From positions 6,502-70,501 of IMG/VR virus record IMGVR_UViG_3300042987_000557: a stretch of 64,000 nucleotides of DNA. One strand, given 5' to 3'. The notes beneath the pieces were generated by a model. The model did no database searches. It had not been told where the DNA came from and was given only the letters and a program-made list of their open reading frames with translations. The translations under genes and the position numbers were made by a program. Source of the stretch: a virus. Below, one piece after another: positions 32,566 to 33,447 of this stretch; position 1 is the stretch's first letter, and every line of letters starts with the position of its first letter.

Positions 32566-33030
32566 ATGGATAGAGCCGCAATAGCTAAAAGATTAGAGGA
32601 GATTGCGGCCCTCCACGGAGGGTCGCTTACACCAGACATCGTAGTGGCAGATGCTAAGAACCCATCAAGTCCTTTACATAGCTACTTTGACTGGAGTGTT
32701 GAGAGCGCAGCACATAAGCACTGGATTGATACCGCACGTAATCTAATTGCTTCTGTGCGCGTGATTGTAACCACAGAGAAAGTTGTTATTAAAGCACCTT
32801 TCTATCTACGTGATCCAAGCAAAAAAGGTAACGAGCAAGGCTACACCACACTTACCAAAGTACGTAGTAATAAAGATCTTTCAAGGGAAGTTATCAATAA
32901 TGAAGTTGCACTCATTGTTGGTGCGCTAAGAAGAGCAAAGAACGTAGCACAAGCCCTTGATATGGTGGATGAGATGGAAGCACTGCTTGAACAAGTCTTA
33001 GTCCTACGCAACAAGCTAGAGAAGGTTTAG
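32566..33030 (+). CDS. Conserved partner protein between the RAMP-like gene and the array
   Basis: G.LTP..VV..A....SPLH.YFDW....AA......AR.LI..V motif; AAGGAG RBS; stop codon abuts the array. Confidence 0.75.
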   Translation: MDRAAIAKRLEEIAALHGGSLTPDIVVADAKNPSSPLHSYFDWSVESAAHKHWIDTARNLIASVRVIVTTEKVVIKAPFYLRDPSKKGNEQGYTTLTKVRSNKDLSREVINNEVALIVGALRRAKNVAQALDMVDEMEALLEQVLVLRNKLEKV

Positions 33031-33447
33031 GCAGGCCGGGTACGGTAAGGTCAGGCTTGGTGCGGTGGGGTTCGGCAGGCAAGGCGCGGCTAGATTAAGC
33101 AAGGTGGGGTATGGCGACGTGAGGTAGGGCAGGCTCGGTTCGGTAGGTTGCCTTTGGGTATGGTTCGGCGCGGTTCGTTTTGGCAGGCAAGGATTGATCC
33201 GGCATGGACAGGCGCGGCAACGCGGGGTGCGGTGAGGTATGGTATGGCAGGCGTGGTGAGGTCGGGTGAGGTGAGGTCGGGTCGGGTTTGTTGTGGCAGG
33301 CTAGGTGAGGTCGGGTTAGTTGTTATATGTAAGGTCTTATCAGGCAGGCTAGGTAAGGTTCGGTTCGGTTTTATTCAGTGCGGTTTGTTAGGGCAGGCAC
33401 GGTGGCGTTAGGTAATACAAGGTGTGATGGGTTTTGATGAGGCAGGT
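33030..33447 (+). ncRNA. GGY-NN pentamer array of 8 units delimited by GGCAGGY; candidate guide-RNA array
   Basis: GGCAGGY at 33030, 33074, 33128, 33182, 33246, 33295, 33343, 33392, 33441. Spacings 44, 54, 54, 64, 49, 48, 49, 49, i.e. 4+5n except one. The repeat is certain; RNA function is inferred. Confidence 0.8.

What the first reader, a model, noticed from the sequence alone, without database searches (positions are those of the whole stretch)
33030..33447. Grammar of the array: eight units of GGCA + (GGY-NN)n with strict phase and distal decay
Seen: GGCAGGY delimiters at 33030, 33074, 33128, 33182, 33246, 33295, 33343, 33392 and 33441 give 8, 10, 10, 12, 9, 9 (1 nt short), 9 and 9 pentamers. 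NN strings: U1 CG AC AA CA TT GC GG TC; U2 AA GC TA TA AA GG AT GA GA AG; U3 TC TC AG GC TG AT TC GC TC TT; U4 AA TT CC AT CA GC AA GG GC GA AT AT; U5 GT GA CG GA GA CG CG TT GT; U6 TA GA CG TA GT (TA) AA CT CA; U7 TA AA TC TC TT TC GC TT AG; U8 AC GG TA AA AA GT GG TT GA. Phase is kept even where GGY has mutated, and the NN positions are not homogenised, unlike a slippage satellite. GGY is intact in 8/8 steps of U1 but only 4/9 of U8. Inference: the 4-nt GGCA step is a processing or boundary signal, the information is stored in NN, and the gene-proximal units may be the youngest or most constrained.
Basis: partly seen in the sequence, partly recalled or inferred. Interest (0 to 1): 0.9.

Follow-up and report, generated by a model that had tools for sequence, protein, structure and literature searches.

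The report
Phage VIPR guide-RNA array
This is a phage's array of guide RNAs built from five-base repeats (a VIPR system, first described in 2026 preprints), in which the two variable bases of each repeat spell out DNA targets in rival viruses; it is a new example of a recently described kind, not a new kind.

Summary
Window 33030-33447 holds eight back-to-back units of GGCA + (GGY-NN)n on the + strand, with strong lag-5 periodicity, low entropy at GGY and about 2 bits at NN.

It matches the VIPR systems described in bioRxiv 10.64898/2026.04.26.720920. The 255-aa ORF upstream (31788-32555) is a Vipr protein. Its family profile hits PDB 36pp 'SUSP1 Vipr protein', it keeps the GGY-binding R/D-W-R residues, and its model has a Cas7-like RAMP fold. 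A conserved accessory gene (32566-33030) follows, then the array.

Thirty-eight viral and 24 genomic relatives were fetched. In nearly all of the 37 viral loci scanned, a + strand array lies downstream of the vipr homologue. Fifteen close arrays hold 8-23 units and 131 distinct units.

Under the published 1-nt-skip rule, unit 4 (24 specified bases) matches five diverged family-A DNA polymerase genes exactly, at N-F-P-M-Q-A-N-G-A-E-M-M, with the skipped base at the wobble position. In orthologous units NN varies less than GGY.

The tail-less layout fits the preprint's 'staggered arrays', which its text does not list as confirmed by RNA-seq. Processing at GGCA and targets for the other seven units are not shown. 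Verdict: new member of a known kind.

The parts
31788..32555 (+). vipr gene: 255-aa Vipr protein, a minimal Cas7-like RAMP that would polymerise on the GGY/NN repeats
   Evidence: A profile of 22 homologues (A1) has PDB 36pp_D 'SUSP1 Vipr protein' as its only hit below E=1 (E 2.4e-4). hhalign against the Felixounavirus ekra homologue gives probability 93.4%; BLASTP gives E 3e-5 with the shared motif GVGDWRP. The AF2 model has pLDDT 81 and pTM 0.78. Foldseek returns 52 PDB hits at E<=1e-3, all listed ones being type III Csm/Cmr, type VII or Cas7-11 complexes. No Pfam match; phrog_4652, function unknown.
32566..33030 (+). vap-like accessory gene: 154 aa, function unknown. Its TAG stop overlaps the first GGCAGG of the array.
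   Evidence: A homologue lies directly downstream of vipr in 47 of 62 related loci. No similarity to the ekra second gene. No Pfam match, no PDB match and only unnamed viral clusters in the ESM Atlas. phrog_15946, function unknown.
33030..33073 (+). Unit 1: GGCA + 8 pentamers; NN = CG AC AA CA TT GC GG TC
   Evidence: The 1-nt-skip pattern (16 specified bases) gives 4 viral hits of mixed gene and codon phase, which is chance level.
33074..33127 (+). Unit 2: GGCA + 10 pentamers
   Evidence: 0 viral hits and 1 metagenome hit, L084, at chance level.
33128..33181 (+). Unit 3: GGCA + 10 pentamers; shared with relative L004
   Evidence: 0 viral hits.
33182..33245 (+). Unit 4: GGCA + 12 pentamers; NN = AA TT CC AT CA GC AA GG GC GA AT AT. 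Predicted guide against family-A DNA polymerase genes at the motif NFPMQANGAEMM.
   Evidence: 5 exact matches of the 24-base gapped pattern in viral contigs, all in PF00476 DNA_pol_A ORFs and all starting at codon phase 0. The five polymerases are 48-57% identical to each other. 0 of 24 NN positions vary and 7 of 11 skipped positions vary.
33246..33294 (+). Unit 5: GGCA + 9 pentamers
   Evidence: 1 viral hit, in codon phase 2, at chance level.
33295..33342 (+). Unit 6: 48 nt with one extra 4-nt step; conserved in 11 of 15 related arrays
33343..33391 (+). Unit 7: GGCA + 9 pentamers; present in 6 of 15 arrays, with NN kept while GGY positions differ
   Evidence: 5 exact hits, but all in near-identical contigs (one independent hit), antisense to the C-terminal ...LKAENEELY... 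(about 6 residues before the stop) of a 227-aa ORF with the skipped base at the wobble position. Suggestive only.
33392..33440 (+). Unit 8: GGCA + 9 pentamers; GGY intact in 4/9; present in 7 of 15 arrays with NN nearly invariant
   Evidence: 3 viral hits (2 independent), of mixed codon phase, at chance level.
33441..33449 (+). Terminal delimiter GGCAGGTAA, which closes the array. A ribosome-binding site and the ATG of the next gene (33471) follow.
   Evidence: The same GGCAGGTAA ending closes 13 of the 15 close arrays; L011 and L012 end in GGCAGGCAA. No + strand promoter-like or terminator-like site was called between 32555 and 33470.

Best explanation
The region is the guide-RNA array of a phage-borne VIPR (Viral Interference Programmable Repeat) system, in a complete 70.5-kb uncultivated freshwater phage genome.

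Proposed mechanism:
- The operon vipr (31788-32555), vap (32566-33030) and array (33030-33449) is transcribed left to right. This is inferred.
- The transcript is divided at the GGCAGGY junctions into eight vrRNAs of 8-12 GGY-NN repeats. The division is inferred.
- One Vipr protomer binds each repeat, buries the GGY and presents the NN pair. This was shown for the SUSP1 homologue in the preprints. Here it rests on homology and conserved contact residues.
- The NN pairs then base-pair with double-stranded DNA that reads NNxNNx..., with the skipped base usually at the codon wobble position. The bound gene is silenced.
- At least unit 4 is aimed at the most conserved motif of a family-A DNA polymerase that other viral elements carry and this phage lacks.

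The 4-nt GGCA step is the 1-nt overlap ('staggered array') between the last pentamer of one guide, GGCAG, and the first pentamer of the next, GGYNN. There is no 3' tail and no ribozyme between guides.
For: Literature. The GGY/NN vrRNA, the Vipr RAMP, the vap gene, the 1-nt-skip rule, wobble alignment, absence of self-targeting and staggered arrays are described in bioRxiv 10.64898/2026.04.26.720920. I read Results, Discussion, two parts of Methods and figure legends. One protomer per repeat and the GGY contacts H17, R138, D177, W178 and R179 come from 10.64898/2026.04.26.720927, section 5.

Protein.
- The A1 profile has PDB 36pp 'SUSP1 Vipr protein' as its top hit at E 2.4e-4; the next hit has E 1.3.
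- hhalign to ekra_66 gives 93.4% probability.
- Window R148, D187, W188 and R189 align with SUSP1/ekra R138, D177, W178 and R179. R148, D187 and R189 are invariant in 22 homologues.
- The AF2 model (pLDDT 81) has a Cas7-like RAMP fold, with 52 Foldseek hits at E<=1e-3.

Linkage.
- In nearly all of 37 viral relatives scanned, a + strand GGY period-5 array lies a few hundred bases downstream of the vipr homologue (about 470 nt in the close relatives). L024 and L027 had none and several others only short stretches; these loci end shortly after the gene.
- A vap homologue follows vipr in 47 of 62 loci.
- Upstream genes are not conserved; the exonuclease is found in 0 of 62 loci.

Targets.
- U4 gives 5 exact hits of 24 specified bases, all in DNA_pol_A genes at codon phase 0.
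- The two 20-base patterns gave 0 viral hits each.
- U4 has the sense of the coding strand, so it would pair with template DNA and not with the mRNA.
- A relative's unit (L015) matches another part of the same polymerase (in L066) at 16/18, phase 0, at ...VDWAQQEFG...; that this is motif A is my recollection.
- No site in the phage's own genome reaches 80% NN match under the 1-nt-skip rule, and the genome has no homologue of that polymerase.

Selection. In orthologous units, variable columns number 55/543 at GGY and 18/362 at NN, Fisher p=0.006.
Against: - Only 1 of 8 units has a target that is clearly beyond chance. U1, U5 and U8 hits look like chance, U7 is one independent hit, and U2 and U3 have none in viral contigs.
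- The five U4 target contigs have 52-69% G+C against 48% for this phage. The actual competitor in this phage's host is therefore not identified.
- A local test on 472 kb of fetched loci showed no skip-1 enrichment: 12 hits against 20 for shuffled NN order.
- Sequence similarity to the characterised SUSP1 Vipr covers only about 47-51 C-terminal residues.
- The vap gene is unrelated to the second gene of the Felixounavirus locus.
- The 3' tail that defines type II vrRNAs is absent.
- Transcription, strand and RNA ends are not shown. RNA-library data were contigs only.
- The p-values on array comparisons ignore the relatedness of the arrays.
Confidence: 0.9

Rival explanations
1. A solo or decoy vrRNA array. 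The units would not arm the phage's own Vipr but would redirect or titrate a competitor's Vipr, as described for satellite-encoded standalone vrRNAs.
For: The abstract of bioRxiv 10.64898/2026.10.15.759431 reports standalone vrRNAs that redirect VIPR to decoy sites, and orphan vrRNAs in phages. Seven of the eight units here have no convincing target.
Against: In nearly all of the 37 viral relatives scanned, the array lies directly downstream of an intact vipr homologue (and a vap homologue in most), on the same strand. U4 matches an essential gene of other elements, not a decoy-like intergenic repeat.
Confidence: 0.04
2. A non-coding G-rich minisatellite made by slippage or unequal crossing-over, with no sequence-specific role. 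It could be a structural DNA element, an R-loop or G-quadruplex-prone region, or an origin.
For: The strand is strongly G-rich (G 44%). GG-N3-GG spacing could in principle form two-tetrad quadruplexes (my own knowledge, not tested). Part of U5 is seen by Tandem Repeats Finder as a 5/10-nt repeat.
Against: NN positions are not homogenised (1.9-2.0 bits). NN is more conserved than the scaffold in orthologous units. The array travels with vipr-vap across 46-98% protein identity while flanking genes change. U4 gives a 24/24 gapped match in codon phase to five diverged polymerase genes.
Confidence: 0.02
3. A translated region: the 87-aa ORF at 33148-33411 or another frame encodes a repetitive protein.
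For: the ORF listing finds a + strand ORF of 87 aa inside the array.
Against: The period is 5 nt with 4-nt steps. Six of eight unit lengths are not multiples of 3. Related arrays differ by whole units and by 1-nt steps that would break any frame. The ORF starts at TTG inside U3, with no conserved start.
Confidence: 0.01

Closest known systems
Type II VIPR of Escherichia phage SUSP1 and its Felixounavirus relatives (bioRxiv 10.64898/2026.04.26.720920 and 10.64898/2026.04.26.720927; PDB 36pp)
   Same: A small RAMP protein with the G-loop GVGDWR and a thumb arginine. A two-gene vipr-vap operon in a phage. + strand guide RNAs of GGY-NN pentamers, 8-12 here against 9-16 reported. Gapped 1-nt-skip matches in coding sequences with the skip at the wobble base. 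No self-targets.
   Different: - No conserved 3' tail or pseudoknot of about 40 nt, and no spacer DNA between guides. In phage ekra each of three vrRNAs is separated by about 100 nt with a repeated leader and tail.
- Vipr is 255 aa against 195-202 aa. It has roughly 50 more residues after the aligned G-loop than ekra (window 202 aligns with ekra 187 of 195), modelled as helices at about 208-254.
- The accessory protein is unrelated in sequence.
- The predicted target is a DNA polymerase motif, not a satellite recombinase or a lysogeny regulator.
'Staggered vrRNA arrays' (legend of fig. S18 of 10.64898/2026.04.26.720920)
   Same: Guides abut and overlap by 1 nt, so that the end of one marks the start of the next. 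Here the last pentamer GGCAG shares its final G with the first GGYNN of the next unit, which gives the apparent 4-nt GGCA step.
   Different: I could read only the legend; the figure and supplementary data are not held. I therefore cannot say whether the published examples use the same GGCAGGY junction or belong to the same Vipr clade or type. The Results text says that only the ribozyme-interspersed and single-vrRNA architectures were confirmed by small-RNA sequencing.
Class 1 CRISPR-Cas (Cas7/Csm3 backbone on crRNA)
   Same: RAMP fold, with Foldseek top hits in Csm, Cmr, type VII and Cas7-11 complexes. One protomer per fixed RNA step. An array of many guides next to the effector gene. Arrays differ between strains by whole units, with widely shared units tending to be distal.
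   Different: No 25-40-nt direct repeats. No cas1/cas2 or other cas genes in the locus. The step is 5 nt with 2 read bases instead of 6 nt with 5 read bases. The system is carried by a phage. Unit order is shuffled rather than strictly polar.
Protein-titrating or ring-binding repeat RNAs: CsrB/RsmZ GGA repeats, and the TRAP-binding 11 x (G/U)AG with 2-3-nt spacers (recalled, not from a call)
   Same: Short G-rich triplets at a regular spacing that are read by a repeated protein surface.
   Different: In those RNAs the spacers carry no information and there is no adjacent RAMP gene. Here the spacers (NN) are the conserved, target-matching part. This was considered early and dropped.

Membership tests
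VIPR system | Vipr protein with a RAMP fold (RRM core, G-loop, thumb) | tested here: met
   The AF2 model built with a 22-sequence alignment has pLDDT 81 and pTM 0.78. Foldseek against the PDB gives 52 hits at E<=1e-3. The best are subunits of about 190-285 residues of type III Csm/Cmr and type VII complexes, and Cas7-11 (TM to target 0.32-0.52). That these chains are Csm3/Cmr4/Cas7 is my reading from their size and from memory; the tool prints entry titles only.
VIPR system | Sequence homology to an experimentally characterised Vipr | tested here: met
   Profile A1 against PDB sequences: 36pp_D 'SUSP1 Vipr protein' at E 2.4e-4, next hit at E 1.3. hhalign against ekra_66: probability 93.4%, E 2.4e-7, 51 columns. 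BLASTP: E 3e-5. The match is limited to the C-terminal third.
VIPR system | GGY-contacting residues (SUSP1 R138, D177, W178, R179) | tested here: met
   They align with window R148, D187, W188 and R189. R148, D187 and R189 are invariant in 22 homologues; W188 is replaced by G in 5 of 22. The roles of these residues are taken from 10.64898/2026.04.26.720927, section 5. The equivalent of H17 was not established.
VIPR system | Tandem YNNGG (GGY/NN) repeats next to vipr on the same strand, at least 4 per RNA (9-16 typical) | tested here: met
   Eight units of 8-12 pentamers at 33030-33440. The same arrangement occurs in nearly all of 37 viral relatives scanned.
VIPR system | NN hypervariable between systems while GGY is the constant scaffold | tested here: met
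   131 distinct units in 15 close arrays. Entropy is 1.9-2.0 bits at NN against 0.7-1.1 at GGY.
VIPR system | Targets obey the 1-nt-skip rule, with the skip at the codon wobble position | tested here: inconclusive
   Met for U4: 5 of 5 exact hits in DNA_pol_A genes at codon phase 0. The other seven units are at chance level or have no hit. Only exact matches could be searched in the large collections.
VIPR system | No self-targeting at >=80% NN match | tested here: met
   The best 1-nt-skip scores in the phage's own 70.5-kb genome are 15/20 and 14/18.
VIPR system | vrRNAs are expressed, processed and bound by Vipr | not testable with these tools
   Two metatranscriptome runs hold the region, but as contigs without strand or ends.
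VIPR type II (SUSP1 / P. fulva clades) | Conserved 3' tail of about 40 nt after the repeat tract, and the vap1 accessory gene | tested here: not met
   Units abut with only GGCAGGY constant. The 154-aa protein shows no similarity to the second gene of ekra. So this is a VIPR but not of type II architecture. Which of types I and III-VII it belongs to needs the preprint's supplementary data, which I could not see.
CRISPR-Cas | Direct repeats of about 25-40 nt alternating with spacers, plus cas1/cas2 adaptation genes | tested here: not met
   No such repeats. PHROG and Pfam scans of the ten neighbouring ORFs found no Cas1 or Cas2-named family; the only CRISPR-related hit is a weak phrog_1706 match (E 6e-5) of the 29966-30649 exonuclease.

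The most novel reading that the evidence does not exclude
The 4-nt GGCA step may itself be the signal that sets the guide boundaries. This has two parts.

Register break. A -1 break in the pentamer register would end one Vipr filament and start the next. A tail-less, ribozyme-less transcript would then be cut into guides by register alone, with host RNases trimming the unprotected junction.
- GGY is best kept next to the junction: 85/87 at the first pentamer against 43/87 at the last.
- A T is kept at position -3 of the junction in 131 of 149 contexts.

Shuffling at the junction. The same 7-nt junction may serve as the recombination site by which whole guides are gained, lost and shuffled between co-infecting phages, with a bias to the vap-proximal end. 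That would be a Cas1-free precursor of CRISPR-like array dynamics. These phages would use it to keep a portfolio of guides against conserved protein motifs, such as the polymerase NFPMQANGAEMM motif, of rival elements.
Probability: 0.3. Interest if true: 0.65.

Novelty: new member of a known kind. Interest (0 to 1): 0.42.

Why it matters
VIPR is a new class of RNA-guided DNA recognition, known so far only from 2026 preprints. Experiments have centred on the type II systems of coliphage SUSP1 and a Pseudomonas prophage, with small-RNA sequencing of type III and V loci.

This locus is a clean natural example of the 'staggered', tail-less array from an uncultivated freshwater phage. It comes with 15 closely related arrays that let one see guide turnover. 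It also has a testable predicted target, a 35-bp site encoding the conserved NFPMQANGAEMM motif of a family-A DNA polymerase.

It shows three things:
- Guides whose GGY scaffold has drifted (U4 has 8/12 intact, U8 has 4/9) still carry conserved, meaningful NN.
- The junction GGCAGGY is conserved over wide Vipr divergence.
- The Vipr clade is large, with 3824 clusters at 50% identity reaching E<=0.001.

For annotation, it shows that such arrays are missed by Tandem Repeats Finder and Rfam and are left unannotated in the two GenBank Felixounavirus records examined.

Tried and rejected
Structure. Single-sequence AF2 of the 255-aa protein failed (pLDDT 32). It was repeated with alignment A1.

Relatives in named collections.
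- megablast of 24 kb of the window against GenBank phages found no match.
- Distant blastn of 32500-34100 gave only three short hits in the array (window 33232-33296), to three Felixounavirus intergenic regions. These reflect the shared GGT scaffold and were the lead to VIPR. The other hits fell in the downstream 80-aa ORF.

Target searches.
- U2 and U3 had 0 viral hits.
- U5 had 1 hit; U8 had 3 hits, of which 2 are independent; U1 had 4 hits; U2 had 1 hit in metagenome contigs. Genes and codon phases are mixed, so I treat these as chance.
- U7's 5 hits are one independent hit.
- No other window unit reaches 78-80% NN match (the thresholds used) at skip 0 or 1 on the U4, U7 or U8 target contigs.
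- A pooled test of 93 in-phase units against 472 kb of fetched loci showed no skip-1 enrichment.
- tblastn of the target polymerase against GenBank phages found only relatives at <=25% identity among the 25 of 214 records listed, mostly mycobacteriophages.

RNA evidence.
- Metatranscriptome runs X15 and X16 hold the region.
- Their contigs cover 28 and 29 of 30 bins of window 30500-35000, array included.
- Contigs give no strand, ends or reliable level, and DNA carry-over cannot be excluded. Transcription and processing are therefore not shown either way.

Terminators. A terminator-like site directly after the array was called in 1 of 3 GC-rich relatives scanned (L030 yes; L020 and L033 no). 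None was called in the window.

Accessory protein. Pfam, PDB sequences and the ESM Atlas gave no function.

Upstream exonuclease. A link between VIPR and the Cas4-like exonuclease upstream was checked and rejected; it is found in 0 of 62 loci.

Early ideas dropped: a TRAP-like or CsrA-like protein-titrating RNA, primase-site clusters, an R-loop origin, a terminase pac site.

Tools and material not available.
- Supplementary files of the preprints (type tables, data S3/S4, fig. S18 image) could not be seen. They may already list this clade and its type.
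Full report
OBSERVATION

GGCAGG begins at 33030, 33074, 33128, 33182, 33246, 33295, 33343, 33392 and 33441. That is 9 of the 20 + strand occurrences in 64 kb. The eight units between them are GGCA followed by 8, 10, 10, 12, 9, 9 (one base short), 9 and 9 pentamers.

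GG-to-GG coincidences at lag 5 number 44, against 16.3 +/- 5.4 (maximum 38) in 2000 Markov-1 simulations. Per-phase entropy is 0.71, 0.96, 1.06, 1.90 and 1.98 bits.

The region is intergenic. It starts on the stop codon of ORF 32566-33030 and ends 21 nt before the ATG at 33471. Tandem Repeats Finder sees only a 33-nt piece of it, and Rfam 15 has nothing credible. The window is bases 6502-70501 of a 70,501-bp IMG/VR virus record rated 100% complete. It is the only such array in that genome.

WHAT IT IS

[quoted passage not shown] I read its Results, Discussion, two parts of the Methods and the figure legends.

It describes VIPR systems, which have these features:
- a small RAMP protein (Vipr);
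- an accessory gene (vap);
- vrRNAs of 9-16 YNNGG (GGY/NN) repeats, whose NN bases pair with double-stranded DNA while one target base per repeat is skipped, usually the codon wobble base;
- seven types, including 'staggered arrays' whose vrRNAs overlap by 1 nt.

Three further preprints exist:
- a cryo-EM study, with one protomer per repeat and GGY held by H17, R138, D177, W178 and R179 (section 5 read);
- a phage-satellite competition study (outline and abstract only);
- a language-model survey that recovers 99 VIPR-like clusters (passages only).

MEMBERSHIP TESTS RUN HERE

The 255-aa ORF at 31788-32555 has no Pfam family. The evidence that it is a Vipr is as follows.
- It aligns with the first gene of the Felixounavirus ekra locus at E 3e-5, through a shared ...GVGDWRP...GR... 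motif.
- A 22-sequence alignment of its relatives (A1) hits PDB 36pp 'SUSP1 Vipr protein' as the only sequence below E=1 (E 2.4e-4). It hits ekra_66 by hhalign with 93.4% probability.
- Window R148, D187, W188 and R189 fall on SUSP1 R138, D177, W178 and R179.
- With A1, AlphaFold2 gives pLDDT 81 and pTM 0.78. Foldseek finds 52 PDB matches at E<=1e-3, all listed ones being type III Csm/Cmr, type VII or Cas7-11 complexes.
- A profile search of 1.84 billion representatives finds 3824 clusters at E<=0.001 and 423 at E<=1e-30.

CONSERVATION OF THE MODULE

- 38 viral loci and 24 loci in bacterial or archaeal assemblies encode relatives.
- In nearly all of the 37 viral loci scanned, a + strand GGY period-5 array lies a few hundred bases downstream of the gene (about 470 nt in the close relatives). 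L024 and L027 had none and several others only short stretches; these loci end shortly after the gene.
- A homologue of the 154-aa ORF fills the gap between gene and array in 47 of 62 loci.
- Genes upstream are not conserved. The PD-(D/E)XK exonuclease at 29966-30649 occurs in 0 of 62 loci.
- GC-rich relatives with only 46-58% identical Vipr use the same GGCAGGC junction, or GGCAGAC in L031.

ARRAY DYNAMICS

Fifteen close arrays (Vipr 75-98% identical) have 8-23 units and 131 distinct units. Of the 124 units of at least 39 nt, 87 have a length equal to 4 mod 5, and 25 carry one extra -1 step.

Sharing of the window's units is uneven.
- U6, U7 and U8 recur in 11, 6 and 7 of the 15 arrays.
- U3 recurs in one other array.
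- U1, U2, U4 and U5 have no same-length match of at least 80% identity in the other arrays, although L004's first unit is close to U1 and its fourth unit contains U5.

Position in the array correlates weakly with sharedness (rho +0.30) and with GGY density (rho -0.22). The arrays are related, so the p-values are optimistic. Order is not fixed: U7-type units precede U6-type units in L007, L011 and L012.

Within orthologous units, GGY columns vary more than NN columns (55/543 against 18/362, Fisher p=0.006). U8, with GGY intact in only 4/9 steps, keeps its NN string in 7 arrays apart from a single G/A change in the last NN of two of them. So the 'decay' is drift in the scaffold of old guides, not loss of information.

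Inside a unit, GGY is best kept next to the junction (85/87 at the first pentamer, 43/87 at the last). T at position -3 of the junction is kept in 131 of 149 contexts.

TARGETS

Under the 1-nt-skip rule, no site in the phage's own genome reaches 80% NN match.

U4 gives the one clear result.
- Its 24-base gapped pattern has five exact matches in IMG/VR.
- All five lie in ORFs that match Pfam DNA_pol_A above the curated cut-off and phrog_17.
- All five start at codon phase 0 and read N-F-P-M-Q-A-N-G-A-E-M-M (I-M in L070).
- The five polymerases are only 48-57% identical to each other.
- None of the 24 NN positions varies among the five sites, while 7 of the 11 skipped positions vary.
- For scale, two 20-base patterns gave 0 viral hits, three 18-base patterns gave 1, 3 and 5 (the 5 being one near-identical group), and a 16-base pattern gave 4. 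Five hits for 24 bases are therefore far beyond chance.
- The guide has the sense of the coding strand, so it would pair with the template DNA strand and not with the mRNA.
- The phage has no homologue of this polymerase.
- A unit from relative L015 matches another part of the same polymerase (in L066) at 16/18 in phase 0, at ...VDWAQQEFG...; that this is motif A is my recollection.
- One target contig (L069, 13.5 kb) also encodes an integrase, a head-protease fusion, a portal and a large terminase.

The other seven units have no convincing target. I could search only for exact matches in the large collections.

MECHANISM

Shown elsewhere for SUSP1 and inferred here: Vipr protomers bind one pentamer each, hide GGY and expose NN. 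The filament binds DNA that reads NNx repeatedly and silences the gene.

Specific to this locus and inferred: the array is the 3' part of the vipr-vap transcript. No + strand promoter-like or terminator-like site was called between 32555 and 33470. The GGCA step is the 1-nt overlap of GGCAG with the next GGYNN, and it marks where one guide ends and the next begins.

Support for the boundary is comparative. Arrays differ by whole units, and one RNA-library contig joins 33029 to 33182, skipping exactly U1-U3 with 7 ambiguous junction letters. Cleavage itself is untested.

WHAT COUNTS AGAINST THIS READING, OR IS MISSING

- Only one unit has a firm target.
- The target contigs are 52-69% G+C against 48% for this phage.
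- There is no strand-resolved RNA evidence.
- Similarity to the characterised Vipr is confined to the C-terminal third.
- The accessory protein has no known fold or family.

VERDICT

This is a genuine VIPR vrRNA array of the staggered, tail-less architecture in an uncultivated freshwater phage. It is a new member of a kind published as preprints in 2026.

Noticed in passing
L001 1304-1818 (Escherichia phage ekra MN850644, 44986-45500); same region in L002 (phage SME50): The 510-bp 'empty' intergenic region after two hypothetical genes holds three GGTNN repeat tracts. Each is preceded by a repeated ...TTTTAAAAGGTCTTTAAGAGGGTCTTTTAA... leader and followed by GGGTAGTTA... These are type II-style vrRNAs. 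They are unannotated in both GenBank records.
   Followed up: partly
L038 4847-6723: A relative with 46% identical Vipr carries a second GGY/NN region of about 1.9 kb with GGCAGGC junctions, after a first short array and a 200-nt non-periodic stretch (about 4600-4850 in the L038 sequence). This is far longer than the 0.4 kb here. Only 4800-5400 was read.
   Followed up: partly
L069 (13,508-bp IMG/VR contig), whole: The contig that carries the U4 target polymerase also encodes an integrase, a major head-protease fusion, a portal and a large terminase. No tail gene was seen among the 8 ORFs scanned. It could be a small temperate phage, a capsid-forming satellite or just a fragment.
   Followed up: partly
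window 29966-30649: A PD-(D/E)XK (Cas4-like) exonuclease (phrog_69; weak phrog_1706 'CRISPR/Cas system associated') lies 1.1 kb upstream of vipr. It is absent next to vipr in all 62 related loci, so it is not part of the module.
   Followed up: yes
window 30627-31058 and 31221-31652: Two 143-aa winged-helix/HTH proteins (TrmB/IclR/MarR-like) lie just upstream of vipr. Within the 3-kb flanks fetched, they lie next to vipr in only a few of the closest relatives.
   Followed up: partly
window 33030-33450, in runs X15, X16 and X1: Contigs from two RNA libraries and one DNA library join or replace array units at or near the GGCAGG junctions (for example 33029->33182 and 33192->33392). Co-occurring strains therefore differ by whole guides.
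   Followed up: partly
window 33835-34077: This 80-aa ORF matches the C-terminal part of many PHROG families, some of them labelled 'nucleotide kinase' (E 1e-33). It is about 70% identical at the DNA level to genes of mycobacteriophages and a Gordonia phage.
   Followed up: no
L017 3001-3765: In one otherwise close relative the vipr reading frame is broken: 6 stops in the tblastn frame, and the ORF ends at residue 127. Its vap and a 10-unit array remain. This could be a sequencing error or a decaying system.
   Followed up: no
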